A stretch of 64,000 nucleotides of DNA from Phycisphaerales bacterium. Its GTDB lineage: Bacteria; Planctomycetota; Phycisphaerae; Phycisphaerales; UBA1924. The DNA is taken from contig JBJHCY010000005.1 of NCBI GenBank assembly GCA_050486265.1, positions 3,375 to 67,374 of the forward strand. The letters are read 5' to 3'. A program made the translations under genes and the position numbers. The notes under the pieces are model-generated. The model had not been told where the DNA came from, did no database searches, and saw only the letters and a list, made by a program, of their open reading frames with translations. Positions within the stretch are counted from its first letter, which is position 1, and every line of letters begins with the position of its first letter. Below, one piece after another: positions 22,574-40,577 of the stretch.

Positions 22574-22600
22574 GCCCGCAGAGAACGAGGGCCCGCCCGC

Positions 22601-23680: not shown

Positions 23681-23690
23681 GTCTTCTGCC

Positions 23691-25037
<1,347 letters not shown>

Positions 25038-25468
25038 CCGGATCCTCTGGGGTTTGGGCGTCGCTTTCAGGAAACAGCCCGAAGGCTAGCCGTTCGGGGC
25101 GCGGGTGTCAGACCTCCACAGCCGATAACACCCGCGGCGTGCAGGCTTTGCCGCAGACTCGGTTTGTGACGGGATCGGCGGGTCCGGCCGGCCGCCGCGG
25201 ACTCAGGAGCGTGCGTTCTGGGGCCGATGCCGGATCGTCGCGAAGATCCAGCAGCCCGCGGAGATCGGCATGGCCTCACAGAACAGTGTCCAGTTGATGT
25301 GCCCGAATCTCGGGTGCCGCCGGATCTTGGCGGTGCCTGTCTCCGCCCGTGGGCGTGCGGTCCGCTGCCGGCACTGCCGAACGATGATCCGGGTGCCCGG
25401 CGAGCAGGTGCGACCGGCCGCTTCCAAGGGCGACAAAGGCCGCTGAGGCCCCGACCACACACGACAGT

Positions 25469-26521: not shown

Positions 26522-26543
26522 TGGACAGAGGATACGGGGGGAA

Positions 26544-26638
26544 GGGGCGCTGGGCGCAGGGTGCTGGGCGCGGGGGGCGAACTGTCGAGCGACCCACCGG
26601 CCGACAACCCTGCGCCCCGCGCCCGGCTCCCAGCGCCC
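26544..26638. repeat. Composite palindromic intergenic repeat, copy A (arms only)
   Basis: G-run arm GGGGCGCTGGGCGCAGGGTGCTGGGCGCGGGGGG (26544-26577) and complementary C-run arm CCCTGCGCCCCGCGCCCGGCTCCCAGCGCCC (26608-26638). Lies in the divergent ruvB / M16-peptidase intergenic region. Confidence 0.7.
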
Positions 26639-26656
26639 ATCCCCTACCATGCCCCC

Positions 26657-27883
26657 ATGCCAGTCGAGTTCCAGCACCGTGTTCTGCCGTCCGGGATCAC
26701 CGTTGTCGCCGAGACGGATCCGCAGGCCGAATCCGCCGCGGCGGGCTTTTTCGTCAAGACCGGCGGTCGCGACGAGCCCGACGAGATCGAGGGCGTCAGC
26801 CATTTCCTCGAGCACATGATGTTCAAGGGCACCGAGGAGCTCTCGGCCGAGGCCATCAACCGGGGCTTCGACGAGATCGGCGCCCGCAACAACGCCTACA
26901 CCAGCCACGAGATCACCTGCTTCTACGCCCATGTCCTGCCCGAGGCGATGGAGCGGAACATCGAGCTCCTGGCGAAGATGATGCGCCCCGCCCTCCGCCA
27001 GACCGACTTCGACACGGAAAAGCAGGTCATCCTCGAAGAGATCGCGATGTACAAGGACGATCCCTTCTGGGTCGTCTACGAGGAGACGATGCGCCGCCAC
27101 TTCGCCGGCCACCCGATGGGCCACCGCGTGCTCGGCTCGGTCGAGAGCATCACCGCCCTGACGCGCGACCAGATGCTCGGGTACTTCGCCGACCGCTACT
27201 CGGCCGACAACACGGTCGTCTCGCTGGCCGGACGCCTCGACTTCGACGCCGCGTGCGATCAGATCGAGTCGCTGTGCGCCCGGTGGCAGCGGACGAAGCC
27301 CACGCGCGACAACAGCCGCCCGCCCGTCGCCCGCGAGTCGTTCGTACAGCAGTCCGACCGCGTGAACCGCACGCACCTGCTCGCGTTCGCCGACGGGCCG
27401 GCGATGGACGACGACCGGCGCTACGCCGCGGCGTTGCTCGGGCAGATCCTCGGCGGGCCCGACAACAGCCGCCTGCACTGGGCGCTGGTCGAAACGGGGA
27501 TCGCCGAGCAGGCGGTCGCCGGCGCCGACCCCCACGACGGGTGCGGGTCGTACTACTTCTACGCGACGGGCGCGCCCGAGCGCGCCGACGAGATCTGGTC
27601 GACCATGCAGCGCGAGATCGCCGGGCTCAACGACTCGCTCGACGAGGACGACCTCGCCCGCCTCCGCGCCCGCTTCGCCACGACCGTCACCATCGGCGGC
27701 GAGCGCCCGGCCGACCGCATGCAGCGCCTCGGGCGGATGTGGGCCTATCTCGGCGAGTACCTGCCGCTTGAAGAAGAGCTCGAACGGATTAACCGCGTCA
27801 CGCTCGAAGATCTGCGCGCGACGCTCGACGCGTTCCCGCTGGACAGGTGCACCTTGGGGAGGCTCGAACCGGCCGGGGCGTAG
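26657..27883 (+). CDS. M16 (pitrilysin/insulinase) family zinc peptidase
   Basis: MPVEFQHRVLPSGITVVAE...GVSHFLEHMMFKGT (HxxEH inverted zinc motif)...NAYTSHE. Start re-set to ATG 26657. Confidence 0.85.
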   Translation: MPVEFQHRVLPSGITVVAETDPQAESAAAGFFVKTGGRDEPDEIEGVSHFLEHMMFKGTEELSAEAINRGFDEIGARNNAYTSHEITCFYAHVLPEAMERNIELLAKMMRPALRQTDFDTEKQVILEEIAMYKDDPFWVVYEETMRRHFAGHPMGHRVLGSVESITALTRDQMLGYFADRYSADNTVVSLAGRLDFDAACDQIESLCARWQRTKPTRDNSRPPVARESFVQQSDRVNRTHLLAFADGPAMDDDRRYAAALLGQILGGPDNSRLHWALVETGIAEQAVAGADPHDGCGSYYFYATGAPERADEIWSTMQREIAGLNDSLDEDDLARLRARFATTVTIGGERPADRMQRLGRMWAYLGEYLPLEEELERINRVTLEDLRATLDAFPLDRCTLGRLEPAGA

Positions 27884-27946
27884 CGCCGAGGCGATCGAAC
27901 ATTCAGACAGCTGGATGAGTCGCCTGCCGCTGAGATTCTGGGATCT

Positions 27947-28088
27947 GGGGCGCTGGGTGTGGGGCGCGGGGCGCTGTGGCAGGAACCGGCCTTCGGCCGC
28001 GGCTTGTCTTTACCTTCGGGCGCCCTGAACCCAGCCTCGGCCGCAGGCCGAAGCCGCCCCTGCGCCCAGCTCCCAGAGCCCCGCGCCC
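27947..28088. repeat. Composite palindromic intergenic repeat, copy B (full)
   Basis: GGGGCGCTGGGTGTGGGGCGCGGGGCGCTG...CCGGCCTTCGGCCGCGG...GAACCCAGCCTCGGCCGCAGGCCGAAGCCGCCCCTGCGCCCAGC...CCCCGCGCCC. Lies between convergent M16 peptidase and smpB. Confidence 0.8.
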
Positions 28089-28174
28089 GCTCTTCGCATC
28101 CCTGCCGAGGCTTCCGAAACGAGGAAGATGCGGATAGTTCTGCCGGCTCATGCGATCGCCCCCTTCGTATCGCA

Positions 28175-28669
28175 TCAGCGGCCCAGCCGCCCCCTGGCCA
28201 ACGCGCGTTCGATGTCGCGCCTCGCCTCACGCTCGCCGATGGCGCGGCGCTTGTCGGCCTGGCCCCGCCCCACGCCGACGCCGATCTTGAGCTTAATGCG
28301 TCCGTCGGCGTTGAAGAACATCTTCAGCGGGACGATGGTCGCGCCCTTCTGCTCGACGGCGCGCGCGAACTTCTCGATCTCGCGGTTGTGCGCCAAGAGG
28401 ATCCGGTCGTGCACCGGCGTGTGGTTCGCCGGGCCGGCGGGCTGGTACTCGGCGATGTTCACCCCGACCAGGACCAGCCTCGGGGCGCGCATGTTCACAC
28501 GCACATACCCCTCTTGCAGCGAGACCTTCCCGTCGCGGACGCTCTTGACCTCCGAGCCGGTCAGCACGATGCCGACCTCGAGCGTCTCGCCGATCTCGTA
28601 GTCGTAGCGTGCGCGACGGTTCTCGATCGTCGGCGTGCCGCTGCCCTGCTTTTTCTTCTTCCTGGCCAT
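28175..28669 (-). CDS. smpB: SsrA-binding protein SmpB
   Basis: MARKKKKQGSGTPTIENRRARYDYEIGETLEVGIVLTGSEVKSVRDGKVSLQEGYV...LLAHNREIEKF...KRRAIGEREARRDIERA. Start re-set to 28669; the track extension MEAAFGRGLL is encoded by repeat copy C. Confidence 0.92.
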   Translation of the reverse strand: MARKKKKQGSGTPTIENRRARYDYEIGETLEVGIVLTGSEVKSVRDGKVSLQEGYVRVNMRAPRLVLVGVNIAEYQPAGPANHTPVHDRILLAHNREIEKFARAVEQKGATIVPLKMFFNADGRIKLKIGVGVGRGQADKRRAIGEREARRDIERALARGRLGR

Positions 28670-28696
28670 GGTGAGAGCCGTGAGTCTAGGGAGCAA

Positions 28697-28735
28697 GCCG
28701 CGGCCGAAGGCCGCTTCCACCCCCGCGCCCCGCCC
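28697..28735. repeat. Composite repeat, copy C (partial, inverted orientation)
   Basis: GCCGCGGCCGAAGGCCGCTTCCACCCCCGCGCCCCGCCC is the reverse complement of the G-arm plus the first triloop hairpin of copies B/D/E. Fills the gap between the kinase stop (28736) and the smpB start. Confidence 0.55.
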
Positions 28736-30391
28736 TCACCCAAGCACCCGTCCGCCGTTGACCGGTCGGCCCGAAGCGAGCGAGGCCCGGAAGGCCTTCT
28801 CCAGCTTCGTCTCGCGGACGCGGGTCTGGTCGGGCCGGATCGGGACGATCAGGCTGAACATCGAGCCCTGCCCGACCGCCGAATCGACCTGGATCTCGCC
28901 CTGCAGGATCGTCGCCAGTTCCCGCGCGATCGCCAGGCCGAGGCCGGTGCCGCGATGCTCGCGCGTGTGTCCCGTCTCGATCTGGTGGAACTTCTCGAAG
29001 ATCCTCGCCTGCTCCTCGGGCGGGATGCCCGGGCCCGTGTCGATGACCGAGATCCGCACCGCGTCGGCGTCGCCGGCGCTGGCGGCGATCAACCGCTCGG
29101 CGCGTACCGTGATCCGCCCCGGACGACCGGTCCGCTCGGCCGGCTCGATGAACTTCACCGCGTTGCTCAGGAAGTTGAAGATGATCTGCTGGAACCGCTT
29201 GTGGTCGGTGCGGATCACCGGCAGCTCCCGCGGCACATCCACGATCACCTCGATCCCCTTGCGCGAGGCCTGCGGATGGATCAGGGCCGCCAGCGTCTCG
29301 CACGCCTCGCGCAAGACCAGCGGCTCGAAACGCAGCTCGACCCGCCCCGCCTCGATCTTGGCCATCTCCAGCAGGCTCTCGATCATCTCCAGCAGTCCCC
29401 GGCCCGCGTCAACAATGTTGGACAGGTAACGCAGACGCTTGGCGGTGTGCGCGTTGTCGGGGTTCTCCTTGGCCTCCTGGCTCGCGATCTCCTGCAGCAG
29501 CTCGGCGAAGCCGATGATCGAGTTCAGCGGCGTGCGCAGCTCGTGGCTGACATTGGCGAGAAAGTCCGCCTTCAGGCGGTTCGCCTCGTACAGCACGCTG
29601 TTGGCTTGGGCCAGCTCGTTGAGCTTGAGGTCGAGGGCGCGATTGACCGACCGCTGCTGGTCGTGGGCGGTCTGGAGCTCGCTGAGCATCCCGTTGAACG
29701 CCTCGGCGAGTTCCTGGTACTCGTCGCCGGTGCGGATGTCCGAACGCGTGCCGAGGTCGCCCTCTTTCACCTTCTCGGCGGTTTCGCGGAGTTGGCGGAC
29801 CGGACCGAGCACGAGCTTGTGGGTGATGAGATAGAACACCACGATCGCCGGGGCGAGGACCACCAGCCCGGCGCTCAGCTGATACACCGTGTTGACCACC
29901 AGCGCCGTCGCCGTGTCGTCGGAACGCTGCTCGATCACCAGGAGGCCCGCGAGGCGCTGCCCGCTCTCGGTCGGGCCGACGGCCCGGTAATAGCTGTACA
30001 CCCGAACGATGCCGTCCCAGCTCGACCACATCCGCTCGCGACGGGTCGGGTCGTCTTCGAAGTAGACAAGGGCTCGGGCGTGCAGCGGGTCGTCCTCGGC
30101 GGCCGCCTCGGCCTCCTCGACGGTCAAGCGGCGCACGCGGATGCCCCCGTGCTCGACGGCGCCCCGCTCGTCGAGGCTGCGGGGGAGGCCCTGCTCGACC
30201 GCCCGGGCGTCGAGCCGCTGCCAGGTGTCCATCTTCTGGCGGAGCAGCTCGCGCTGGCGGTCCTCGACCAGGGCGTTCATCCGAAGCCACGGGGGCGCCA
30301 GGGCGGCCAGCACGATCAGCACCACCGCCCCGCCGAAGAGCAGGAGGCACTTGTTGGCCAGCGAGAGTTTGCGGGGCAGACGCAGACGCAT
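28736..30391 (-). CDS. Membrane sensor histidine kinase (HAMP-HisKA-HATPase), no adjacent response regulator
   Basis: H-box LKADFLANVSHELRTPLNSIIGFAELL; HAMP-like GPVRQLRETAEKVKEGDLGTRSDIRTGDEYQELAEAFNGM; G-boxes VIDTGPGIPPEE and GTGLGLAIAREL. Start re-set to MRLRLPRKLSLANKCLLLFGG at 30391. Confidence 0.88.
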   Translation of the reverse strand: MRLRLPRKLSLANKCLLLFGGAVVLIVLAALAPPWLRMNALVEDRQRELLRQKMDTWQRLDARAVEQGLPRSLDERGAVEHGGIRVRRLTVEEAEAAAEDDPLHARALVYFEDDPTRRERMWSSWDGIVRVYSYYRAVGPTESGQRLAGLLVIEQRSDDTATALVVNTVYQLSAGLVVLAPAIVVFYLITHKLVLGPVRQLRETAEKVKEGDLGTRSDIRTGDEYQELAEAFNGMLSELQTAHDQQRSVNRALDLKLNELAQANSVLYEANRLKADFLANVSHELRTPLNSIIGFAELLQEIASQEAKENPDNAHTAKRLRYLSNIVDAGRGLLEMIESLLEMAKIEAGRVELRFEPLVLREACETLAALIHPQASRKGIEVIVDVPRELPVIRTDHKRFQQIIFNFLSNAVKFIEPAERTGRPGRITVRAERLIAASAGDADAVRISVIDTGPGIPPEEQARIFEKFHQIETGHTREHRGTGLGLAIARELATILQGEIQVDSAVGQGSMFSLIVPIRPDQTRVRETKLEKAFRASLASGRPVNGGRVLG

Positions 30392-30450
30392 CGCGCGAGT
30401 GTATCCGGACGCGGGCCGCCTCCGGCGAGGGCTCGGCTTCGCCTTCGCCC

Positions 30451-30614
30451 GGGGCGCTGGGCGCAGGGCGCGGGGCGCTGGGGGTGGAGGCGGCCTTCGG
30501 CCGCAGATTACCGATGCGTTCCGGAGCTCTGAACCCCAGCCTCGGCCGCAGGCCGAAGCCACCCCTGCGCCCGGCACCCCGCGCCCAGCACCCCGCGCCC
30601 AACGCCCAGCGCCC
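30451..30614. repeat. Composite palindromic intergenic repeat, copy D (full, arms expanded)
   Basis: GGGGCGCTGGGCGCAGGGCGCGGGGCGCTGGGGG...GCGGCCTTCGGCCGC...GAACCCCAGCCTCGGCCGCAGGCCGAAGCCACCCCTGCGCCC...CCCCGCGCCCAGCACCCCGCGCCCAACGCCCAGCGCCC. Lies between the divergent kinase and miaB starts. Confidence 0.8.
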
Positions 30615-30642
30615 AACAATCCGCCCGCATAGAGTTGCAGCC

Positions 30643-32301
30643 ATGCCCGCCGGACGCGTCTATCTCGAAACTTTCGGCTGCCAGATGAACGAGCTGGACT
30701 CGGAGCTGGTCCGGGGCCGCCTCGCCTCGCTGGGCTACCGCTTCACGCCCGACCCGGCCGAGGCGGATGTCGTGCTGTACAACACCTGCTCGGTCAGAGA
30801 GCAGGCCGAGCAGAAGGTCTGGAGCCGCCTGGGCGACCTCAAGACCCGCAAGGCCGAACGCCCCGAGACCGTCGTCGGCGTGCTCGGCTGCATGGCCGAA
30901 CGCGACGGGCAGGACCTCATCAAGCGGATGCCCGTGGTCGACATCCTCTGCGGCCCAGGCGAGCTTGACAAACTCCCAGAGCTCATCGACAACGCATTGC
31001 GGACCCGCCTCTCCCTCGGCGCCGACCGCTCGGCTTCGCAGGTCGCGCTGCAGGGGAGCACCTCGCGCCGGAGCGCCACGCTGGCGGCGGCTCAGGACGA
31101 TCTTGAGCTGCTCGACCTCTCCCGCGCGATCTCGCCGACAGACCATGCAGGCTCGGCGTATGTCCGCATCACACGCGGGTGCAACAAGTTCTGCACCTAC
31201 TGCGTCGTGCCCTTCACGCGCGGGGCCGAAGTGCACCGCCCGCCGGACCACATCGTCGACGAGTGCAAGAGGCTCGCCGACGCGGGCGTGATCGAGGTCA
31301 CCCTGCTCGGCCAGACCGTGAACCACTACCGCTACGAAGACGGGGCGGCGGTGACGGTCAACGGGATGCTCCAGCCGCAGAAGGGACGGATCTACAAGGG
31401 CGCCTCGGCGGACGGCCGGCGCACAGACGCCTTCGCGGGCGAGCGGGTCACGACCTTCGCGGATCTGCTCCGGCGCATCCACGACGAGGTCCCCGCGATC
31501 AAGCGCCTTCGCTTCGTGACCTCGTACCCCCGCGATTTCGGCGACGATGTGCTGGAGGTGATGCGCGACCACCCGCGGATCTGCCGTTATCTGCATGTTC
31601 CTGCCCAGTCCGGCTCCGACCGGATGCTCAAGATGATGAACCGGGGCTACACCGTCGCCGAATACGACGAGTTCATCGTCCGCGCCCGGCATTACCTCGA
31701 CCAGCCCGAGCTCGGCCGCCCGCTGATGATCTCGGGCGACATCATCGTCGGCTTCCCCACCGAGACCGACGAAGACTTCGAGGCGACCAAGGCCCTCCTC
31801 CAGCGCAGCCGCTACAAAAACTGCTTCATCTTCAAGTACTCACCCAGGCCCGGCACCGTCGCCTACGACCGCATCCCCGACGATGTCCCCGACGAGGTGA
31901 AGCGCCGGCGCAACAACGAGCTGCTGGCGCTGCAGACCGGGATTTCCGAAGCGATCGGTCGTCAGCAGGTCGGGCGCGAGTTCGAGGTGTATGTCGAGGG
32001 CCCCAGCCGCAGGGCGAAGAAGAAGGCCGGCCTCAAGAAGTCGAGCCTCCGCAACAAGGCCAACCACACCGTCTCGCTGACGGTCTCCGGGCGCGACCCG
32101 GGCGAGGCCGACACCCACGCGCAGGTCGCCTCGATCGACGCCGATGGCCCCGTCCAGCTCAGCGGGCGGACCGACGGCGACCAGATCGTCTTCTTCGACA
32201 CCCCCGATGGCCGCTCCCCGGCGGACTTCATCGGGCGCCTCGTGAAAGTCCGCGTCGACGCGGCCCAGGGCATGTCGCTCGCGGGCTCGCTGATCGGGTG
32301 A
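30643..32301 (+). CDS. miaB: tRNA-i6A37 methylthiotransferase MiaB (radical SAM)
   Basis: MPAGRVYLETFGCQMNELDSE (UPF0004 domain), radical SAM CNKFCTYCVVP, C-terminal TRAM-like region. Start re-set to ATG 30643; the track extension MEAAFGRRLP... is encoded by repeat copy D. Confidence 0.92.
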   Translation: MPAGRVYLETFGCQMNELDSELVRGRLASLGYRFTPDPAEADVVLYNTCSVREQAEQKVWSRLGDLKTRKAERPETVVGVLGCMAERDGQDLIKRMPVVDILCGPGELDKLPELIDNALRTRLSLGADRSASQVALQGSTSRRSATLAAAQDDLELLDLSRAISPTDHAGSAYVRITRGCNKFCTYCVVPFTRGAEVHRPPDHIVDECKRLADAGVIEVTLLGQTVNHYRYEDGAAVTVNGMLQPQKGRIYKGASADGRRTDAFAGERVTTFADLLRRIHDEVPAIKRLRFVTSYPRDFGDDVLEVMRDHPRICRYLHVPAQSGSDRMLKMMNRGYTVAEYDEFIVRARHYLDQPELGRPLMISGDIIVGFPTETDEDFEATKALLQRSRYKNCFIFKYSPRPGTVAYDRIPDDVPDEVKRRRNNELLALQTGISEAIGRQQVGREFEVYVEGPSRRAKKKAGLKKSSLRNKANHTVSLTVSGRDPGEADTHAQVASIDADGPVQLSGRTDGDQIVFFDTPDGRSPADFIGRLVKVRVDAAQGMSLAGSLIG

Positions 32302-32459
32302 GGACGGATGGGGCTGCGATGACGGATCGGACCCGACCCTTCGCGTTGCTCAGGGATCGGCGTCATGCCCACGCGGCGGATCACGCGCCCGGCAGCGATA
32401 CGCGCAACCCGGACGCCGACCTCTGAGCGCAGCGAAGAGTCGGGTCGATCCGGCTCCCG

Positions 32460-33980
32460 TCAATCCCCCAGCGCCTGCCTGTAAAACTCCGCCGCATCGA
32501 CCTTGAGCTTCTCAAGGTCCGCGACCCGCAGGTACATCATGTGCCCAGCCTCGTAGTGGCTCAGCATCACCTGCTCGCGAAGCTCGGGGTCGAGCTGCAT
32601 GTGGCTGATGGTGTACTCGGCCGCGAAGTGCGGCGTCGCCAGGTCGTAATACCCGCAGGCGAACCACGCGTGCAGATCGCGGTTCCGGTTCATCGCGCTC
32701 CGCAGATTCTCGGCGAGGTTCGCGTAGCGGTTCTGGTCCTGCGCGTAGCTCCACGGGCGGACGCGTCCGGTCAGGATCTCGTAGGGATGGTCGTTGACAT
32801 ACTTCAGCTCGCGGCGCATGTAGTCGTTCAGCGCGGTCGAATACGGGCCGAGAATCGCCGAATAGCTCGGGTCGTACTCGTAGCGGTCGCCGACATCGAG
32901 GCGGTCGCGCCCCTTGTACCGCGAGTCGAGCCGCCCGACCGTCCGGCCCTCGTCGCGCAACAGTTCCTTCGTGAATCGGAAGATGTCGATCCGCAGGTCC
33001 GTCTGCTCGATGTACTTCTTCGAAAGCCCGGTGTAGCGGGCGAGCTTCGAGGCGATCTCGTCGCGCTCGCGCTGGGTCAGCCGGTCGCCCTTGGCCAGCG
33101 CCACGAGATACTCCGTCTCGGCGAACGCCTCGACCTCGTCCAAGAGCGCCCGCAGATCGTCAGAAAGCGCCGGCTCCAGACGCCCGTGGTAGAACGCCGT
33201 CGCCGCGTAGGTCGGCAGGAAGAGCCAGTACGGCATCTCGTTACCGACATTGAACCGGATCGTCTGAAAGTTCAGCACCGGGCTCACGAGGATCACCCCG
33301 TTGAGGTACATCCCGTGCGTTTCCTGCAGGTAGCTGCTCAGGCCGGCGGCACGCGTCGTGCCGTACGACTCGCCGATCAGGAACTTCGGGCTCGACCACC
33401 GCTCGTTGCGGGTCACCCAGAGGCGGATGAACTCCCCCACCGCCTCGATGTCCTCGCGCAGCCCGAAAAACTCGGTCGGACGCACGCCCTCCTCCGCGCG
33501 GCTGTAGCCCGTCCCCACCGGATCGATGAAGACCATGTCCGTCAGGTCCAGCCACGAGAACTCGTTGTCCACCACGCGCCCGGGCGGGGGCAGGGGCATG
33601 CCCTCGTCGTCCATTAGCACGCGCCGGGGGCCCAGCGTCCCAAGGTGCAGCCAGACCGACGACGAGCCCGGCCCGCCGTTGAAGCTGAAGGTCAGGGGCC
33701 GGTCCTCGGGCCCGTGGTCGCCGTCGAGCGTGTAGGCGATGAACGAGAGCTCGGCCCGGGTCTTGCCGTCGTAGGCGGGCAGCTCCATCCGCCCCGCCAT
33801 GGCGGTGTAGGAAAGCTCCCGCCCGTCGATCGTCACCGTGTGGTGGGTGACGCTCGGCGCGTCGGCGACGCGGAACGAAAGGTCGACCGCCGGTTTGTCA
33901 TCCCCGCCCAGCGCGGGGAACATCCACACAGCCATGCCGAGCGAAACAGCACAGAACCGATGCAACACCTTCGAACGCAT
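32460..33980 (-). CDS. Secreted S10-family serine carboxypeptidase-like protein
   Basis: Signal-peptide-like N-terminus, FSFNGGPGSSSVWLHLGTLGP and nucleophile elbow FLIGESYGTTRAAG, both typical of peptidase S10. Confidence 0.8.
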   Translation of the reverse strand: MRSKVLHRFCAVSLGMAVWMFPALGGDDKPAVDLSFRVADAPSVTHHTVTIDGRELSYTAMAGRMELPAYDGKTRAELSFIAYTLDGDHGPEDRPLTFSFNGGPGSSSVWLHLGTLGPRRVLMDDEGMPLPPPGRVVDNEFSWLDLTDMVFIDPVGTGYSRAEEGVRPTEFFGLREDIEAVGEFIRLWVTRNERWSSPKFLIGESYGTTRAAGLSSYLQETHGMYLNGVILVSPVLNFQTIRFNVGNEMPYWLFLPTYAATAFYHGRLEPALSDDLRALLDEVEAFAETEYLVALAKGDRLTQRERDEIASKLARYTGLSKKYIEQTDLRIDIFRFTKELLRDEGRTVGRLDSRYKGRDRLDVGDRYEYDPSYSAILGPYSTALNDYMRRELKYVNDHPYEILTGRVRPWSYAQDQNRYANLAENLRSAMNRNRDLHAWFACGYYDLATPHFAAEYTISHMQLDPELREQVMLSHYEAGHMMYLRVADLEKLKVDAAEFYRQALGD

Positions 33981-34106
33981 CTCGCGCCTCCTGAATCTCT
34001 GTCAGAATCCCGTCGGTCGCGGCATGGTACCGAAACCCACGCCCGAAGGCGGCACGCGCCCCGCGCAGCCCTCCCCGGGCGGACCCCAAGCCGCAGAGGA
34101 CCACGC

Positions 34107-34940
34107 GTGAGCGATCAAACCACACCCCCAAGTCCAGACTTTCATCCCGACCCCCAACAAGAAGCCCAGATCCGACGCATCGCCGCCATGCTCGCCCAGG
34201 CGGAGCGTGTTGTGGTCCTGACCGGGGCCGGCGTCAGCGCCGAGAGCAAGATCCCCACCTTCCGCGACGCCATGGAGGGCCTCTGGGCCAGCTTCGACCC
34301 CCAGTCCCTCGCGACCCCCGAGGGCTTCGCCGCAGACCCCGAAACCGTCACCAGGTGGTACGACTTCCGACGCATGAAGTGCCGCGAGGCCGAGCCCAAC
34401 CCCGGCCACCTCGCCCTCGCCCGGATGGAGCGCGAGCTCCAAGCCCGAGAACGCGAGTTCATCCTGCTCACCCAGAACGTCGACGGCCTGCACCGGCGCG
34501 CCGGCAACCGCTCGGTCGTCGAGCTCCACGGCTCGCTGGAAGTCTGGCGATGCGTCGAGACCGGCCAGGAATTCCGCGACCTGCCCGCGCCGTTCGAGAC
34601 CTACCCGCCCCGCACCGATCGCGGCACGATGCTCCGCCCCGGCGTCGTCTGGTTCGGCGAGATGCTGCCGCCCGAAGCGATCGAGACCGCCGGCGACCGC
34701 CTCGACGCCTGCGACCTGTTCTTTGCGATCGGCACCAGCGCGACGGTCTACCCCGCGGCCGGTTTCTCCGACCTTGCGCGTGCCGCCGGCGCGAAAACCG
34801 TCGAGATCAACCCCGACGCGACGCCGGCCTCCGGCCATGTCGACGAGAGCGTCAGAGCCCGGTCCGGCGCCGTGCTGCCGGGCATCGTCGAGCTTGCGTT
34901 CGGCGCAGCGAGTGAACCCGGGCGGGGCGGGACGGATTGA
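34107..34940 (+). CDS. cobB: NAD-dependent protein deacylase (Sir2/CobB family), zinc-ribbon cysteines mostly absent
   Basis: LTGAGVSAESKIPTFRD, TQNVDGLH, VELHGS (catalytic His), FFAIGTSATVYPAAG. A GTG start at 34107 was chosen and is uncertain. The stop overlaps the next gene's start (TTGA). Confidence 0.82.
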   Translation: MSDQTTPPSPDFHPDPQQEAQIRRIAAMLAQAERVVVLTGAGVSAESKIPTFRDAMEGLWASFDPQSLATPEGFAADPETVTRWYDFRRMKCREAEPNPGHLALARMERELQAREREFILLTQNVDGLHRRAGNRSVVELHGSLEVWRCVETGQEFRDLPAPFETYPPRTDRGTMLRPGVVWFGEMLPPEAIETAGDRLDACDLFFAIGTSATVYPAAGFSDLARAAGAKTVEINPDATPASGHVDESVRARSGAVLPGIVELAFGAASEPGRGGTD

Positions 34941-36595
34941 AGGGGAGCAAGCCCAGCCAGCTCCCCGGCGCAGGCCTGGACAGCACCGTCTGCCGCAGGC
35001 TGGTCTTCGTGTTCGGCGATCAACTCGCCGACAGCACCTCGGCGTTCGAAGGGTTCGACGACGAACGCGATGTCATCCTCATGGCCGAGTGCGACGCCGA
35101 GACCGGCCTCGGCGATGGGAAGTCCAAGCACGCCGGGCGGAGCCACAAGCAGCGCATCGCCGTCTTCTTCAGCGCCATGCGCCATTTCGCGATCGCCCAG
35201 GCCGACAAGGGCCGACGCGTCCGCTACATCCGCGTCAACGACCCCAACAACACGCACGGCTTTACCGGCGAGCTCGAACGCACCCTCAAACAACTCTCGC
35301 CCGACGAGATCGTCGTCACCCGCCCCGGCGAGTGGCGCGTGCTCGACGAGGTCGAGGCGTGGGAAGACCGCTTCGGCGTCCCCGTCCGCCTTTGCGAGGA
35401 CGACCACTTTTGCACCACACCCGCCGAGTTCTCGCAGTGGGCCTCGGGACGCAAACAGCTCGTCATGGAGTACTTCTACCGCGAGCAGCGCAAGAAGCTC
35501 GGCGTCCTCATGGACGCCAAGGACCCCGTCGGCGGCGAGTGGAACTTCGACAAAGACAACCGCGAATCGTTCAAAGCCGCGCCCCGCGTCCGCCCGCCCA
35601 AGTGGGCCGAGCCCGACGAGGTTACGCGCGAAGTGATCGAGCTCGTCAACCGGCGCTATCCCGACGCGCCCGGCCGCCTCGACGCCGATCGCTTCATCTG
35701 GCCCGTGACTCGCTCGGACGCCCTGCGCTGGCTCGACGAGTTCATCGACACGCGCCTCGCCAGGTTCGGCCCCTACGAAGACGCGATGTGGACCGGCCAG
35801 CCCTACCTCTACCACTCGATGCTCTCGGTCGCCCTGAACCTCAAGCTCCTCGACCCGCGCGAGTGTGTCGACAAAGCCCTCAACGCCTACAAGAGCGGCA
35901 AGGCGCCCATCAACTCCGTCGAGGGCTTCGTCCGCCAGCTCATCGGCTGGCGCGAATTCATCCGGGGCGTCTACTGGCACGAGGGCCCCGCCTACCGCGA
36001 CCGCAACAGCCTCGCCCAGCACGGAAACCTCCCCGAGTTCTACTGGACTGGGGAGACGGACATGCGCTGCATGGCCGAAGCCGTAGCGCCCGTGCTCGAC
36101 CACGCCTGGTGCCACCACATCCCGCGCCTGATGATCCTCTCAGGCTTCGCCATGATGGCTGGCGTGCACCCCAGACAGGTCGGCGACTGGTTCTACGGCA
36201 TGTTCGCCGATTCGGTCGACTGGGTCACCACGCCCAACACCATCGGCATGGGCATGTATTGTGACGGCGACTCCAAGCGTCCCGGCGTTGTCGGCACCAA
36301 GCCCTACGCCGCCAGCGGCAAGTACATCGGACGCATGAGCAACTACTGCGAGCACTGCAAGTACGACAACACCCGGCGCACCGACAGCGACGACGAAAAC
36401 GCCAAGCCCGCCTGCCCCTTCAACACCATCTACTGGGACTTCCTCATCCGCCATCGCGAACGATTCAAGCGCAACAACCGCATGGCGATGATCCTGAAGA
36501 ATGTCGACAGGATGAGCAAAGACGAGCGCGCCGAGATCACCGTCGCGGGCAGGAAACTCCGAAAGAAACTCGGTGTCGGCCCCATTTCGGGATGA
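34937..36595 (+). CDS. FeS-BCP / CryPro-type cryptochrome-photolyase (PhrB/CryB-like, putative (6-4) photolyase)
   Basis: RLVFVFGDQL...SHKQRIAVFFSAMRHF...GEWNFDKDNRESF...HHIPRLMILSGF...WVTTPNTIGM, and four Cys placed as in the [4Fe-4S] ligands (MRC..., NYCEHC..., ACPFN). TTG start at 34937 is uncertain. Confidence 0.85.
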   Translation: MKGSKPSQLPGAGLDSTVCRRLVFVFGDQLADSTSAFEGFDDERDVILMAECDAETGLGDGKSKHAGRSHKQRIAVFFSAMRHFAIAQADKGRRVRYIRVNDPNNTHGFTGELERTLKQLSPDEIVVTRPGEWRVLDEVEAWEDRFGVPVRLCEDDHFCTTPAEFSQWASGRKQLVMEYFYREQRKKLGVLMDAKDPVGGEWNFDKDNRESFKAAPRVRPPKWAEPDEVTREVIELVNRRYPDAPGRLDADRFIWPVTRSDALRWLDEFIDTRLARFGPYEDAMWTGQPYLYHSMLSVALNLKLLDPRECVDKALNAYKSGKAPINSVEGFVRQLIGWREFIRGVYWHEGPAYRDRNSLAQHGNLPEFYWTGETDMRCMAEAVAPVLDHAWCHHIPRLMILSGFAMMAGVHPRQVGDWFYGMFADSVDWVTTPNTIGMGMYCDGDSKRPGVVGTKPYAASGKYIGRMSNYCEHCKYDNTRRTDSDDENAKPACPFNTIYWDFLIRHRERFKRNNRMAMILKNVDRMSKDERAEITVAGRKLRKKLGVGPISG

Positions 36596-36644
36596 TCACA
36601 GGATGATCTCGGGCTGACCGCCAAGCGGCAGAGAAAGGACCCCC

Positions 36645-38087
36645 ATGCGGGCGCTGGTCTGGTTCAGGTGCGACCTTCGGATGCGCGACAACACCGCCCT
36701 CGCCGAGGCGTCTTCCGCCTCCGATGGCGGCGTCGTCGGCGTTTTCACCATCTGCCCCGACCAGTGGCGCGAGCACGACTGGGGCCCGATGAAGGTCAAC
36801 TTCCTGCTGCGCAACCTCCGCGAGCTCTCGGCCTCGCTCGCCTCGGTCAACATCCCGCTGAAGATCCTCACCACACCCCGCTTCGACACCGTGCCAAACG
36901 CGCTCGACAAACTCGCGGCCGAGTGCAAGTGCGACGCGCTCTACTTCAACCGCGAGTACGAGGTCAACGAGCAACGGCGCGACGAGCGGGTCGAGGCCGT
37001 GTTCAGAAAGGCCGGGCGAAAGGTCTACCCGCTGCACGACAAGATCCACTTCCCGCCCGGCGAACTCCGCACCCAGCAGGGCGGGTGGTACACCGTGTTC
37101 TCCCCGCTCAAAAGGTCGTGGCGCGAGGCGTTCAAGGCGACCCCGGATGGCGAAGGATGCAAGAAGGTCCGGCGGGCGCCGTCGGCGAGGCCCGACACAG
37201 GTATCAAGCCCGACAAGATCCCCGAGAGAATCGAAGGCTTCGACCCCGAAACCGACCGCCCCGATCTCTGGAAGGCCGGCGAAGACCACGCCAGAGACCG
37301 ACTCCGCGCCTTCATCGACGCGCGCATCGACGACTACAAAGACAAGCGCGATTTCCCCGGGATCAACTCGACCAGCACCCTCTCGCCCTACCTCGCCCTG
37401 GGCGTCGTCTCATCGAGGCAGTGTGTCGAGGCGGCGAGGGCCGCCAACGACGGACAGATCGACTCGGGATCCAGGGGCGTCGTCCACTGGATCGACGAAC
37501 TGGTCTGGCGCGAGTTCTACCAGCACATCCTCGCCGGCTTCCCCCGCGTCTCGATGGGCCAAGCCTTCAAGCGCGAGTACGACCGCGTCGTCTGGGACGA
37601 AGACGAGGACGCGTTCGAGGCGTGGAAGGAAGGCCGCACCGGCTACCCGATCGTCGACGCGGCGATGCGCCAGCTCAACCAGACCGGCTGGATGCACAAC
37701 CGCCTGCGCATGATCGCCGCCTCGTTCCTCACCAAGGACCTCTTCCTCGACTGGCGCAAGGGCGAGCGATACTTCATGAACCGCCTCGTCGACGCCGACC
37801 TCGGCTCCAACAACGGCGGGTGGCAGTGGTCGGCCTCGACCGGCACCGACGCGCAGCCCTACTTCCGCATCTTCAACCCGACCGCCCAGAGCGAGCGCTT
37901 CGACCCCGAGGGCGGCTTCATCCGCCGCTTCGTCCCCGAGCTCAAGAACCTCGACAGCCGAGAGATCCACGCCCCCTACGAGCGGGCGGGCGCCCTCTTC
38001 GCCAAGCTCGACTACCCCGAGCCGATCGTCGACCACAAGCGGGCGCGGGAGCGGGCGATCAAGGCGCTCGAGTCGGTCAAGCCCTGA
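36645..38087 (+). CDS. phr: Class I CPD deoxyribodipyrimidine photolyase
   Basis: [19 protein letters not shown]...[14 protein letters not shown]...[39 protein letters not shown]...[30 protein letters not shown] (shown with one Glu omitted: the ORF reads WKEGRTGYP). Confidence 0.9.
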   Translation: [480 protein letters not shown]

Positions 38088-38126
38088 ACGCGCCCGCCGA
38101 ACCCGCCGACCGAACCAACGACCCGC

Positions 38127-38159
38127 AAAAAAGCAACGGCCCGGCGGGAAGCCGGGCCG
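38127..38159 (-). terminator. Rho-independent terminator after rplT (weaker in the + direction for phr)
   Basis: 9-bp stem CGGCCCGGC / GCCGGGCCG (38137-38145, 38151-38159). On the minus strand it is followed by UUGCUUUUUU, 45 nt past the rplT stop. Confidence 0.6.
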
Positions 38160-38203
38160 CTGTTGATTTCAAACTATCGATCTCGACCGGCGCCGCCGGA
38201 GCC

Positions 38204-38578
38204 TCAGGCGTTGGCGGGCGTCGCCCGCGAGTGCTCCTTGGCGATCGCGACCAGTTCGTCGAAGACCGCCGGGTCGGAGATCGCGACCTCGCTGAGCATC
38301 TTGCGGTTCAGGTCGATGCCGGCCATCTTCAGGCCGTTGATGAACGCCGAGTAGCGGGTGCCGCGCATGCGGCAGGCCGCGGTGATGCGGGTGATCCACA
38401 GGCGCCGGTAGTCGCGCTTGCGCCGACGCCGGTCGCGGAACGCGAAAACGCCGGCGCGGATGACCGCGTCCTTGGCCTGGTACTTGTGCTTGCTCTTGAC
38501 GCCGTAGTAACCGCGGGCTTCGCGGAGAATGCGCTTGCGGGCCCGGGTGCGGGCTGAACCTTTGCGAACGCGGGGCAT
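38204..38578 (-). CDS. rplT: 50S ribosomal protein L20
   Basis: MPRVRKGSARTRARKRILREARGYYGVKSKHKYQAKDAVIRAG...RRLWITRITAACR; start re-set to 38578. Confidence 0.93.
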   Translation of the reverse strand: MPRVRKGSARTRARKRILREARGYYGVKSKHKYQAKDAVIRAGVFAFRDRRRRKRDYRRLWITRITAACRMRGTRYSAFINGLKMAGIDLNRKMLSEVAISDPAVFDELVAIAKEHSRATPANA

Positions 38579-38698
38579 GTCATCGTCTCCAAGTGGCCCG
38601 GCCGGGGCCCGCCGGCTCACGCCGGTCCGGGGCTTTCACGGTCCCGCCGGGGCGTGCGGGGTGCTGGACTGGAAAATCTGCGAGGGGCTCCGGAACGC

Positions 38699-38992
38699 TC
38701 AATCCGCGTTCTTCGCCCGCTCCTCACGCATCGCCCGGCGCTCGGCCGGCGAGGGGCTGCGCCGGATCGCGGCGCGGGGCTGCGTCCGACCGCGCAAACG
38801 CTTGAACAGCAACTGCTCGAAACGCTTCGCCTCGGGGTTGGCGATGTAGCGGTCGCGGCGGAGCTGACGCAGACGCTTGCCTGACTTGTGAGAGCTCAGG
38901 TGCTTGTGAAACGCGCTGCGGTGACGCACCTTCCCGGTACGCGACACCCGCACACGCTTGAGCACACCCTTGTGCGGCTTGTTCTTCGGCAT
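38699..38992 (-). CDS. rpmI: 50S ribosomal protein L35 with C-terminal extension
   Basis: MPKNKPHKGVLKRVRVSRTGKVRHRSAFHKHLSSHKSGKRLRQLR... 97 aa versus ~65 typical. Start re-set to 38992. No infC upstream. Confidence 0.88.
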   Translation of the reverse strand: MPKNKPHKGVLKRVRVSRTGKVRHRSAFHKHLSSHKSGKRLRQLRRDRYIANPEAKRFEQLLFKRLRGRTQPRAAIRRSPSPAERRAMREERAKNAD

Positions 38993-39182
38993 CGTGCTGG
39001 CCTTTCGGCGCTCTGGAACTATCCGGCCGAGGATCGCGGGGCCTCCCTGCGATTCCCGTCGGCTCGGGAACGCAGACAATAGGCCCGACCAAAGCCCGGG
39101 GCCACAGGGCCGAGACCGCCCGCAGGGCGATCGCGTTTTCCCTCACTTGGAGGGTTCGCTGCCGCTGAGATTGCGAGAACAT

Positions 39183-39333
39183 GGGCGCGGGGAGCAGGGC
39201 GCGGGGCGCTGGGAAGGAAGCGGCCTTCGGCCGCGGGTTTCTTTAGCTCTGCGACACCCCGAACCCCAATTCGAAACCGAACCCAGCCTCGGCCGCAGGC
39301 CGAAGCCTCACCTGCACCCAGCGCCCCGCGCCC
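39183..39333. repeat. Composite palindromic intergenic repeat, copy E (full)
   Basis: GGGCGCGGGGAGCAGGGCGCGGGGCGCTGGGAAGGAAGCGGCCTTCGGCCGCGG...GAACCCAGCCTCGGCCGCAGGCCGAAGCCTCACCTGCACCCAGCGCCCCGCGCCC. Lies between the DUF1559-type gene stop and the rpmI start. Confidence 0.8.
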
Positions 39334-39347
39334 AGTTCCCTCTTCTC

Positions 39348-40577
39348 TCAGGGTCCTACGAACGCGTCCTCAACCCCCGCGGGGGTCTCGAAACCGTTCA
39401 GCGGGCTCGCGCGGCGGCCGGTCAGGTGATCGAGCACGATCTCGATGTCCCGGGGCAACCAGATGTTGTCCCCGTTGGAGAGCTCGGGGGTTTCGAGCCA
39501 CTGCACCGATCCGTCGTTGAACAGCACATTCTGCCCGCGACGGCCGTGGTTGTGCGAGTTCTCCATGGGGTGGATCGGCTGACCCAGGACCGCCCGCTGC
39601 ACCACCGGCGAACGGTCGGCCAAGAGCACCACCGAGCCGGGGCTCGACCAGCTGGGCCGGTCGTTGCCGAACATGATCCGATAGCTGTACGACACCTCGT
39701 CCAGCCGGCGCCAGTCGCGGGCGGCAGGGTCTGTCAGACGCGTCGGGGCGACCCGGTTGCCCGGGCAGGCCAGGCTCTCCATCCCGACATACTCCTGGCG
39801 CGTCAGCTCGAACAGGTTCGCCGAGTTGGACTCCTCGGGACGCCCGACATTCCACCACAGCCGCCCCGGAAGACCGGCGCTCGCCATCGGCAGCGCGTCG
39901 CGGTTGGCGCTCGCGTACGAGCCCATCGCGAACGCCGAGGCCCGCATGTTGCTCGCGCAGATCGTCTGGCGGCTGTCCTCGCGCACCGCGTTCATCACCG
40001 GCCAGAGGACCGAAGCCCCCACCACCAGCGACGCGGCGACCGCCACGAAATCCCAGAACCGCACGCGACCGCCACGCCCGCGCCCGATCGGGATCGGCTC
40101 GAGCGCAGCCTCGTCGACCTCGCGGACACGGGCCATCGTCCGATCGATCAGGCCCGATGGCGCAGATCCGCCCGTCGTCACCATCGAGGCCAGCCGCTGA
40201 TGGACCGCCGCACGCTGCTTCAGGCTGCCCGGCGCTCTGGCGGGGTCGAACCCGGCGAGCACCCAGGCGTCCAGGGCGTCGGCGTCGGCGGGGGTCAGCT
40301 CGGGCTCGCGACGCTCCAGCTCGATCCGGCGCGCCACGCGGACCATCGTCACATCCGCGAGCGTTCTGTCTTCGGGCAGCGGGGCGCCGTCGAGGGCCCC
40401 GAGGATCGTCATCAGGCGGGAGGCGCGGCCTTCGTCCTCGGCGTTCCAGCCCGAGCCGACGAGGCGGTCGACCGCGTCGCGGTCTTCGGGCGAGAGCTGG
40501 GCGCCCAGATCGAAGGGAAACGGCCCGTCCGAAAAGTCGTCGTCACCGAAATTGTTGGTTGGTCCGTCGGTGCTCAT
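39348..40577 (-). CDS. Putative anti-sigma factor with a pseudopilin-like DUF1559 / H-X9-DG-type periplasmic domain
   Basis: ATGA overlap with the upstream ECF sigma gene. ~173-aa cytoplasmic part with a duplicated L(S/T)PxDxDAxD motif, then a single TM (FWDFVAVAASLVVGASVLWPVMNAV), then DSRQTICASNMRASAFAMGSY... and HNHGRRGQNVLFNDGSVQWL, matching the planctomycete DUF1559 pattern. Confidence 0.7.
   Translation of the reverse strand: MSTDGPTNNFGDDDFSDGPFPFDLGAQLSPEDRDAVDRLVGSGWNAEDEGRASRLMTILGALDGAPLPEDRTLADVTMVRVARRIELERREPELTPADADALDAWVLAGFDPARAPGSLKQRAAVHQRLASMVTTGGSAPSGLIDRTMARVREVDEAALEPIPIGRGRGGRVRFWDFVAVAASLVVGASVLWPVMNAVREDSRQTICASNMRASAFAMGSYASANRDALPMASAGLPGRLWWNVGRPEESNSANLFELTRQEYVGMESLACPGNRVAPTRLTDPAARDWRRLDEVSYSYRIMFGNDRPSWSSPGSVVLLADRSPVVQRAVLGQPIHPMENSHNHGRRGQNVLFNDGSVQWLETPELSNGDNIWLPRDIEIVLDHLTGRRASPLNGFETPAGVEDAFVGP

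What the first reader, a model, noticed from the sequence alone, without database searches (positions are those of the whole stretch)
26544..39333. Dispersed composite palindromic intergenic repeat (G-run arm, two conserved triloop hairpins, C-run arm): five copies within 13 kb
Seen: there are three full copies, B 27947-28088, D 30451-30614 and E 39183-39333. Each has the following parts in order. (1) A left arm of GGGGCGC(T/G)GGG-type units, for example GGGCGCGGGGCGCTGGG. (2) The hairpin GCGGCC-TTC-GGCCGC. (3) A 30-55 nt variable spacer. (4) A near-invariant core, GAACCC(C)AGCCTCGGCCGCAGGCCGAAGCC, which folds as a 9-bp stem carrying the same C/A mismatch in all three copies. (5) A right arm CCCAGCGCCCCGCGCCC that is the reverse complement of the left arm. 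Copy A (26544-26638) has only the two arms, and copy C (28697-28735) is an inverted left half. All copies are strictly intergenic. They lie in two divergent promoter regions, one convergent terminator region and two same-strand gaps. The arms contain four or more G3+ runs with 3-4 nt loops, so G-quadruplex formation on one strand (and C-rich i-motif or G4 on the other) could compete with the long arm-arm stem. The element also generates false N-terminal extensions in ORF calls: MEAAFGR... appears on both smpB and miaB. Inference: a MITE/REP-like element or structured RNA module, which I cannot assign to any named family.
Basis: seen in the sequence. Interest (0 to 1): 0.6.

Follow-up and report, generated by a model that had tools for sequence, protein, structure and literature searches.

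The report
Decaying ISAs1-type MITE with palindromic core
The repeat is real: it is the inner palindrome of a roughly 275-bp non-autonomous transposon (MITE) that spread through the intergenic regions of one Phycisphaerales genus and is now decaying, which makes it an ordinary kind of element in a little-studied lineage.

Summary
The five copies exist where stated. The 23-nt core occurs 43 times in the 3.67-Mb genome, and a profile search finds 66 loci, 65 of them intergenic.

Intact copies are about 260-300 bp. They end in terminal inverted repeats (TIRs) CAGGGCGATCGCAT...ATGCGATCGCCCTG and are flanked by 10-bp target-site duplications (TSDs). Window copy B really spans 27887-28165, and copy E starts at 39123.

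Copy B, copy E and all 12 other intact loci tested are absent from the same sites in at least one sister species, and most from all three, so they are insertions.

ISAs1-family insertion sequences in other genera of the same bacterial family carry near-identical ends (CAGGGCTATCGCATTGTC) and also make 10-bp duplications. No such transposase is found in this genus.

The "short" arm-to-arm copies (D), arms-only copies (A) and fragments (C) are eroded derivatives. They diverge more from the consensus. Two orthologous pairs show an outer part kept in one species and lost in the other.

Nothing points to a strand-specific RNA. There is no Rfam hit, both strands fold equally well, and orientation relative to genes is random.

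Verdict: a new member of a known kind. G-quadruplex formation and any terminator role remain untested.

The parts
26544..26638 (.). Copy A: an arms-only derivative. It has a G-arm (26544-26577), 30 nt of unrelated sequence and a C-arm (26608-26638), with no hairpins and no outer parts. It lies in a divergent intergenic gap.
   Evidence: A diverged arms-only copy sits at the orthologous site in congener G101, so this copy predates the G000/G101 split.
27877..27886 (+). Left target-site duplication of copy B (GGCGTAGCGC). It contains the TAG stop codon of the upstream peptidase gene.
   Evidence: It matches the right flank TTCGTATCGC at 7 of 10 positions. The three congeners have only 13 to about 52 nt between the two converging stop codons here.
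27887..28165 (+). Copy B: a full-length MITE. Parts in order: left TIR (cGAGGCGATCGAACA, from 27887), left outer part (to 27946), G-arm (27947-27976), hairpin 1 (27986-28000), spacer, core hairpin 2 (28033-28055), C-arm (28057-28088), right outer part (28089-28148), right TIR (CATGCGATCGCCCCC, 28149-28163).
   Evidence: nhmmer profile positions 2-274 of 276, score 257. Alignment with other full copies. Absent from the orthologous site in G086, G101 and G102.
28164..28173 (+). Right target-site duplication of copy B (TTCGTATCGC). It abuts the stop codon of smpB on the minus strand.
28697..28735 (-). Copy C: a fragment in inverted orientation, made of hairpin 1 (28700-28714) plus part of an arm (28720-28735).
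   Evidence: nhmmer profile positions 70-122. The three congeners hold unrelated sequence at this site.
30451..30614 (+). Copy D: a short form with no outer parts. It has a G-arm (30451-30484), hairpin 1 (30490-30504), a spacer, the core (30538-30560) and an expanded C-arm (30562-30614). It lies in the divergent gap between the sensor kinase gene and miaB.
   Evidence: nhmmer profile positions 61-200. It is present at the orthologous site in G086 and G102, but there it has lost half of hairpin 1 through the core and has shorter arms. It is therefore an old copy decaying differently in each lineage.
39123..39333 (+). Copy E: right-truncated. It has the left TIR (CAGGGCGATCGCGTTTTC, 39123-39140), left outer part (to 39182), G-arm (39183-39213), hairpin 1 (39220-39234), a long spacer with extra GAACCC-type units, the core (39285-39307) and C-arm (39309-39333). 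The right outer part is missing.
   Evidence: nhmmer profile positions 2-211. Absent in G086 and G102. G101 has only an arm-to-arm short form at the same site.

Best explanation

Anatomy. The intact element is about 260-300 bp. Its order is: a roughly 20-bp terminal inverted repeat (TIR) CAGGGCGATCGCAT(K)(W)TC; a 60-nt left outer part; the G-arm of GGGCGCN heptads; the GCGGCC-TTC-GGCCGC hairpin; a variable spacer; the core hairpin; the C-arm; a 70-nt right outer part; and the inverted TIR. The whole element can fold as one long rod.

How it moved. An ISAs1-family DDE transposase supplied in trans recognised the TIRs and inserted the element through a 10-bp staggered cut, leaving 10-bp target-site duplications (TSDs).
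- Shown here: the TIRs, the TSDs, empty orthologous sites in sister species, and the match of ends and TSD length to ISAs1-family insertion sequences in the same bacterial family.
- Inferred: the identity and source of the transposase. None is present in the four assemblies of this genus.

How it decays. Outer parts are deleted. Internal deletions occur between the self-complementary GGCCG hairpins and between the arms. The central segment can flip between the arms. The number of heptad units changes. These processes produce the arm-to-arm short forms, arms-only copies and solo arms. The window's five copies represent different stages: B intact and recent, E right-truncated, D short and old, A arms-only, C a fragment.

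Any host-level role of the GC-rich palindrome (bidirectional terminator, mRNA 3' stabiliser, G-quadruplex) is possible but untested.
For: Ends and duplications:
- Sharp ends and TIRs appear in the alignment of nine full copies.
- 7 of 14 full copies have flanking 10-mers identical at 9 or more of 10 positions, against 1.1% of permuted flank pairs (raw flanks).

Empty orthologous sites:
- Joined-flank queries for 12 other full-length loci match contiguously in at least one congener. Eight do so in all three, two in the two congeners where the site was found, and two have an element in G101.
- Copy B is absent in all three congeners. Copy E is absent in two.
- The empty site of C5:157954 has a single CCGCACCCA, which is duplicated in G000.
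- The G101 ortholog of C6:42870 has a perfect CCTCCAGCGC on both sides, and the G102 empty site has it once.

Link to ISAs1:
- ISAs1-family elements (NF033564) in 5 of 301 genomes of the same taxonomic family have TIRs CAGGGCTATCGCATTGTC, CAGGGCAATCGCAAAGTC and CAGGGCAAACGCATTATC, with 10-bp TSDs. The first is 16 of 18 identical to the MITE TIR.
- The published ISAs1 member ISArsp11 has IR CAGGGCTGATGCAAAGTCG and a 10-bp direct repeat (PMC6305408).

Erosion:
- Identity of the inner region to the consensus is 0.89 in full copies and 0.82 in short forms (P=2e-4).
- G101 keeps the right outer part and TIR where G000 (C6:18675) has a clean 66-nt deletion. G000 copy E keeps the left outer part where G101 has none.
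- "Empty" sites of short forms often retain a solo arm or an arms-only remnant.

Distribution: the element is restricted to one genus. All four of its species have it, and other genera give only weak partial hits.
Against: - No ISAs1-family or other matching transposase is found in this genome or its three congeners. The only DDE_Tnp_1 hit is a truncated IS5-like remnant without these ends.
- Similarity to the ISAs1 elements is confined to the roughly 20-nt TIR. The outer parts are not recognisably derived from them.
- G/C arms also bracket unrelated middles in at least 11 loci, so the arm module may have a history of its own.
- Seven of 14 full copies have only 6-8 of 10 matching flank bases.
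- At copy E's site the G000 and G101 inner sequences differ much more than the flanking genes do. This could mean independent insertions or gene conversion rather than simple shared descent.
Confidence: 0.8

Rival explanations
1. The arm-to-arm unit (heptad G-arm ... C-arm) is itself the mobile or self-propagating unit, in the manner of a REPIN-like doublet or a second nested MITE. The long form would then be one such unit that landed inside an unrelated ISAs1-type MITE and was carried along.
For: - G..C arm pairs bracket at least 11 loci with unrelated middles, including a second recurrent cargo. There are 53 G..C pairs and no C..G pairs.
- The inner unit in long forms is flanked by a diverged direct repeat, GCTGAGATTCTGGGATCA on the left and GCTGAGACTCCCGAATCA on the right, which looks like an old insertion scar.
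- Several short forms are unique to G000.
Against: - No clean empty site with a duplication was found for any short form. The sites in congeners hold unrelated filler or solo arms, which fits decay better.
- Two orthologous pairs show directly that an outer part was lost.
- Short forms are more diverged than long forms.
- The only Y1/RAYT gene is flanked by a different repeat.
Confidence: 0.12
2. It is a family of structured non-coding RNA genes or cis-regulatory RNA modules (terminator or stabiliser) kept by selection on RNA structure, with mobility incidental.
For: - The two hairpins are nearly invariant, and the C/A mismatch is conserved (CA in 44 of 52 copies) and would be a G-U pair on the opposite strand.
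- Predicted folds are very stable, at -108 kcal/mol for the inner consensus and -167 for the full consensus.
- Copies often fill the gap between converging or tandem genes.
Against: - No Rfam family matches, even at E up to 1.
- Mean fold energy is the same on both strands (-96.7 against -96.1, with 22 of 46 copies more stable in the sense orientation).
- In tandem gene contexts, 16 copies point the same way as transcription and 23 the opposite way.
- Stem pairs hardly covary, with 2 double changes at one pair.
- Orthologous copies lose the core hairpins freely.
- RNA-seq runs are held only as contigs that break at the repeats, so they do not bear on this either way.
Confidence: 0.05
3. It is generic GC-rich low-complexity similarity with no real repeat family behind it.
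For: The genome is 67.7% G+C. A reversed-sequence control still gives 36-40 arm-like heptad runs, against 116-117 observed.
Against: - 43 near-exact copies of a 23-nt core and 66 profile hits down to E=1e-76.
- Conserved order of nine parts across copies.
- Genus-restricted distribution.
Confidence: 0.01

Closest known systems
ISAs1-family insertion sequences (for example ISArsp11, and the elements found here in genomes G057, G081 and G140 of the same bacterial family)
   Same: The ends begin CAGGGC and continue as (T/A/G)ATCGCA. The first 18 nt match the G057 element at 16 of 18 positions. Both make 10-bp target-site duplications.
   Different: The element here is about 275 bp and has no transposase gene. 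Beyond the roughly 20-nt TIR it shares nothing recognisable with those 1.2-1.3-kb elements. No ISAs1 transposase is present in this genus.
Bacterial MITEs in general (Correia elements of Neisseria, RUP of Streptococcus, Nezha of cyanobacteria, ERIC/IRU of enterobacteria; compared from general knowledge)
   Same: It is a short non-coding element with TIRs and TSDs. It has tens of dispersed, strictly intergenic copies and a long hairpin-forming sequence. Related species differ in presence or absence, and truncated and mosaic derivatives exist.
   Different: The host lineage is Phycisphaerales (Planctomycetota) and the TIR family differs. The 10-bp duplication is longer than the TA or other short duplications of most named MITEs. 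The core is very GC-rich, with heptad-repeat arms that fit the G-quadruplex motif on both strands.
REP/BIME and REPIN elements mobilised by RAYT (Y1) transposases
   Same: Both are palindromic, intergenic and high in copy number. Both have a fixed relative orientation of the two arms, decay to singlets, and combine with other repeat modules in mosaics.
   Different: This element has no GTAG/CGTC tag. The arms are about 30 nt of heptads and the unit is 140-300 bp, against 20-40 bp for a REP. It has DDE-type TIRs and 10-bp duplications. The genome's single RAYT-like gene is flanked by another repeat, GTTGTAGCCACGGGTGGAG.

Membership tests
MITE (non-autonomous DDE-type transposable element) | Terminal inverted repeats at sharply defined ends | tested here: met
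   CAGGGCGATCGCAT... at the left end and ...ATGCGATCGCCCTG at the right. Similarity between copies stops just outside these ends.
MITE (non-autonomous DDE-type transposable element) | Target-site duplication of fixed length flanking the TIRs | tested here: met
   The duplication is 10 bp. 7 of 14 full copies match at 9 or more of 10 positions, against 1.1% in the permuted control. The target is single in empty sites.
MITE (non-autonomous DDE-type transposable element) | Small, many dispersed copies, no transposase gene inside | tested here: met
   Full copies are 230-301 bp. There are 66 loci on 20 contigs.
MITE (non-autonomous DDE-type transposable element) | Insertion polymorphism between close relatives | tested here: met
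   Copy B, copy E and 12 of 12 other full-length loci have an empty site in at least one congener, and most in two or three.
MITE (non-autonomous DDE-type transposable element) | An autonomous partner with the same TIRs in the same genome | tested here: not met
   NF033564 and PF01609 searches of the four genus assemblies find no partner. No TIR pairs lie 0.4-6 kb apart. The assemblies are drafts of 28 to about 410 contigs, so a collapsed insertion sequence could have been missed.
ISAs1-family-related element | Ends beginning CAGGG and an 8-10-bp direct repeat | tested here: met
   The MITE's CAGGGCGATCGCATTTTC compares with CAGGGCTATCGCATTGTC (G057) and CAGGGCTGATGCAAAGTCG (ISArsp11). All have 10-bp duplications.
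ISAs1-family-related element | Internal sequence derived from an ISAs1 element (a deletion derivative) | tested here: not met
   Local alignments of the MITE's outer parts to the ends of four ISAs1 elements do not extend past about 13-33 nt.
ISAs1-family-related element | Mobilisation by an ISAs1 transposase | not testable with these tools
   This needs an in-vivo or in-vitro transposition assay.
REP / REPIN with RAYT | A 20-40-nt palindrome with a GTAG or CGTC tag, copies flanking the RAYT gene, and no target-site duplication | tested here: not met
   The arms have no tag. The single Y1_Tnp gene (G000 C5:332948-333400) is flanked by a different, GTAG-containing repeat. Target-site duplications are present.
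Curated structured RNA family (Rfam 15) | A covariance-model match | tested here: not met
   No family matched the element at E up to 1 across window 22000-42000.
G-quadruplex-forming sequence | Four or more G3+ runs with 1-7-nt loops | tested here: met
   117 of the genome's 990 motif hits lie in the element loci.
G-quadruplex-forming sequence | Actual folding into a quadruplex in competition with the arm-arm duplex | not testable with these tools
   This needs CD, ThT or DMS footprinting.

The most novel reading that the evidence does not exclude
The heptad-repeat arms, (GGGCGCN)n ... (NGCGCCC)n, form an independent palindromic shell. It propagates or recombines on its own and captures different cores: the two-hairpin core, a second roughly 200-nt cargo, and terminator-like hairpins. 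Its strict G-then-C polarity and its G-quadruplex-prone strands would be part of the mechanism. On this reading the ISAs1-type MITE is only one vehicle that picked it up.
Probability: 0.12. Interest if true: 0.6.

Novelty: new member of a known kind. Interest (0 to 1): 0.32.

Why it matters
- **Annotation.** The copies create false N-terminal extensions such as MEAAFGR on smpB and miaB. They break short-read assemblies: contigs in congeners and in public runs end inside them. They also account for about 12% of the genome's G-quadruplex motifs. Anyone annotating or binning this genus needs to mask them.
- **Mobile-element biology.** This is an ISAs1-type MITE in Planctomycetota. I found no described MITE of this lineage in the paper library. 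No partner transposase is left in the genus. Comparing four species shows step by step how such an element erodes: loss of outer parts, hairpin-to-hairpin deletions, arm flipping, and solo arms.
- **Markers.** The insertion polymorphisms can serve as phylogenetic markers within the genus. G000 and G101 share insertions that G086 and G102 lack.
- **Limits.** The finding does not open a long-standing question.

Tried and rejected
**Searches for the partner transposase**
- ISAs1 model NF033564 in the own genome and genus: no hit.
- PF01609 in the genus: only a 5'-truncated IS5-like remnant at G000 C8:23600-23960, without these ends.
- TIR pairs 0.1-6 kb apart in the own genome: only the MITEs themselves plus chance pairs.
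- Metagenome scan with GGGCGATCGCATNNTCNGGCAG: 45 loci, none containing the element by nhmmer, so all are chance matches.
- Laying contigs from the source metagenome on the G057 ISAs1 element: only 40-60-nt motif-level matches, so inconclusive.

**Other leads that went nowhere**
- RAYT/REP link: rejected, because the RAYT is flanked by another repeat.
- Strand-specific RNA: rejected on fold energies, orientation and covariation.
- RNA-seq runs X2-X4 hold a strain about 96% identical, but only as contigs that break at the repeats. They give no information on transcript ends.
- A 28-nt match of copy B's right outer part to the start of a 303-aa gene next to a helicase/restriction-enzyme-like ORF in G073: judged chance, because the family consensus does not share it.
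- My global pairwise alignments of filled against empty sites split the gap spuriously. I replaced them with anchored local alignments.
- Paper searches found no described MITE or repeat of this kind in Planctomycetes or Phycisphaerae.

Full report
**1.

The window is C5:3375-67374 of a 3.67-Mb, 28-contig, 67.7% G+C genome. An exact 20-mer of the core occurs in three other Phycisphaerales MAGs, which places the organism in that order.

- The 23-nt core AGCCTCGGCCGCAGGCCGAAGCC (up to 3 mismatches) occurs 43 times in the genome.
- A profile built from full copies finds 66 separate loci.
- Heptad G-arms are followed within 400 nt by a C-arm 53 times. The reverse order never occurs.
- 65 of 66 loci lie outside my rough gene calls, in a genome that is 83% coding.

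So this is not generic GC-rich similarity.
- The C/A mismatch is conserved (CA in 44 of 52 copies).
- The MEAAFGR ORF extensions exist.
- The arms fit the G3-N4 quadruplex motif. 117 of the genome's 990 G4 motifs lie in 0.32% of the sequence.

**2.

Extending the copies showed that many continue about 60 nt to the left and about 75 nt to the right. They stop sharply at CAGGGCGATCGCAT... on the left and ...ATGCGATCGCCCTG on the right. The 276-column consensus is given.

- Window copy B is a complete element at 27887-28165.
- Copy E starts at 39123 with the left TIR and left outer part, but lacks the right outer part.
- D is arm-to-arm only, A is arms only, and C is a fragment.

The whole consensus folds into one rod. 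Outer parts pair with each other, arms pair with each other, and the two GGCCG-based hairpins can also pair with each other. The predicted energy is about -167 kcal/mol on either strand.

**3. It is a transposon insertion**

*Duplications.* The 10 nt just outside the two TIRs are identical at 9 or more of 10 positions in 7 of 14 full copies. Only 1.1% of flanks paired between different copies reach that. Examples are GCCCCGAAGC, GGCCGAGGGC and CGATTCCCTA.

*Distribution.* The genus has four species genomes, and all carry the element. Other genera of the family give only weak partial hits.

*Empty sites.*
- Copy B is missing from the orthologous site in all three congeners. The two converging stop codons there are 13 nt apart in two of them and about 52 nt apart in the third.
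- Copy E is missing in two congeners.
- A query made of the joined flanks of 12 other full-length loci matched contiguously in at least one congener for every locus. Eight matched in all three, and two in the two congeners where the site was found. At two loci G101 carries an element: a full copy at C6:42870 and about 98 nt of partial sequence at C5:157954.
- At C5:157954 the empty site has a single CCGCACCCA, which flanks the element on both sides in G000.
- At C6:42870 the G101 ortholog has a perfect CCTCCAGCGC on both sides, and the G102 empty site has it once.

**4. Which transposase**

From memory, ISAs1-family elements end in CAGGG and make 8-10-bp duplications. A published example agrees: ISArsp11 has IR CAGGGCTGATGCAAAGTCG and a 10-bp direct repeat (PMC6305408).

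The ISAs1 model NF033564 finds nothing in this genome or genus. It does find intact elements in 5 of 301 genomes of the same taxonomic family. Their ends are CAGGGCTATCGCATTGTC, CAGGGCAATCGCAAAGTC and CAGGGCAAACGCATTATC, with 10-bp duplications. The first differs from the MITE TIR at 2 of 18 positions.

Similarity stops after the TIR. The MITE therefore shares ends with these elements rather than being a simple deletion derivative of one of them. The partner that moved it is not in the available assemblies.

**5. Short forms are eroded long forms**

- The inner region of short forms is more diverged from the family consensus than that of full copies (0.82 against 0.89, P=2e-4).
- At C6:18675, G000 has an arm-to-arm copy. 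The G101 ortholog is otherwise near-identical but still carries the right outer part and TIR.
- At copy E the reverse holds. G000 keeps the left outer part and G101 has none.
- The orthologs of copy D in G086 and G102 have lost everything from the second half of hairpin 1 through the core.
- The G000 copy at C6:42870 has lost the core hairpin.
- "Empty" sites of short forms in congeners often still hold a solo arm or an arms-only remnant.
- One G101 copy has the reverse complement of the left outer part on its right side. Recombination between the inverted arms, flipping the central segment, would produce this.

Copies also cluster. 24 loci have a neighbour within 5 kb, against 10.5 expected (P about 0.001). 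The five copies within 13 kb in the window are therefore part of a general pattern.

**6. Alternatives**

*REP/REPIN-RAYT.* The single Y1 transposase gene (G000 C5:332948-333400, also present in G086) is flanked by a different, GTAG-containing repeat. The element also has DDE-type ends and duplications.

*Structured RNA.* There is no Rfam hit. Fold energies are equal on both strands. In tandem gene contexts, 16 copies are co-oriented with transcription and 23 opposed. Stem pairs are almost invariant, with little covariation. The hairpins are lost freely in orthologs.

*Independently mobile arm unit.* This cannot be excluded. Arms bracket other cargos in at least 11 loci, and the inner unit in long forms sits between diverged direct repeats GCTGAGAYTCYSGRATCA. 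However, no clean short-form insertion with a duplication was found.

**7. What remains unknown**

- The source of the transposase.
- Whether any copy is still mobile.
- The origin of the palindromic core.
- Whether the rod or the G-quadruplex-prone arms do anything for the host.

The RNA-seq runs that contain a strain about 96% identical are held only as contigs that break at the repeats. They could not be used to map transcript ends.

**8. Verdict**

Its unusual feature is a GC-rich heptad-armed palindromic core, and four species show well-documented stages of its decay. Interest is modest.

Noticed in passing
window 23549-23682; also G000 C1 ~103930, C4 ~142540, C6 ~48530: A second, unrelated repeat family. 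It consists of hairpins CACTGGCGG-(CTTGNC)-CCGCCAGTG, present here as three units in alternating orientation between two genes. Copies elsewhere in the genome are sometimes embedded between G/C arms. A weak chance-level Rfam hit (MIR8622, E=0.16) comes from its symmetry.
   Followed up: partly
window 32403-32457 (G000 C5:35777-35831), plus about 70 loci genome-wide: A third repeat module, CCCGACTCTTCGCT(N)CGCTCAGAGGTCGGCGTC. It occurs alone or as the middle of elements about 200 nt long that are bracketed by the same heptad G/C arms (C3:212507, C13:129, C6:48351). The intergenic repeats of this genome are mosaics of several modules.
   Followed up: partly
G000 C5:332948-333400 (outside the window); ortholog at G086 C83:71243-71587: A single-copy IS200-like Y1 transposase of 151 aa. 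It is flanked on both sides by a GTAG-containing palindromic repeat (GGGTTGTAGCCACGGGTGGAG...CCCGTGGA), which is the layout of a RAYT with its cognate REPs. The same repeat also flanks the IS5-like remnant on C8.
   Followed up: partly
G000 C8:23600-23960: A 5'-truncated IS5-like DDE_Tnp_1 remnant. It is the only PF01609 hit in the genome.
   Followed up: partly
whole genome G000: The octamer GCGATCGC, known as the HIP1 palindrome of cyanobacteria and part of this MITE's TIR, occurs 931 times. Eight other GC-rich palindromic octamers occur 5-339 times each. Most GCGATCGC copies are inside genes, so codon usage (GCG ATC GC) may explain much of the excess.
   Followed up: no
G000 C1:~54215-54340 and dozens of places in G086, G101 and G102: The 3' end of the gene upstream of the C1:54435 copy encodes a C-terminal motif, DFFLFLSYFADGDPIADFNNDGVIDADDFFDFLAAFAAGC. 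The motif recurs at 82-93% DNA identity at more than 30 places in each congener. It looks like a dockerin-like sorting tail ending in GC that is shared by many secreted proteins.
   Followed up: no
window 26400-30800 in public runs X2-X4: Runs labelled RNA-Seq of a named organism contain contigs of a strain about 96% identical to this window, at flat depth across genes. That strain also carries copy B, so a culture or consortium holding a near relative probably exists.
   Followed up: partly
G000 C6:42870, C3:119970, C4:22371, C6:18675 and window copy E, compared with the congeners: G000 and G101 share element insertions that G086 and G102 lack, and G086 and G102 are near-identical to each other at these sites. 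This suggests two species pairs within the genus and gives ready-made phylogenetic markers.
   Followed up: partly
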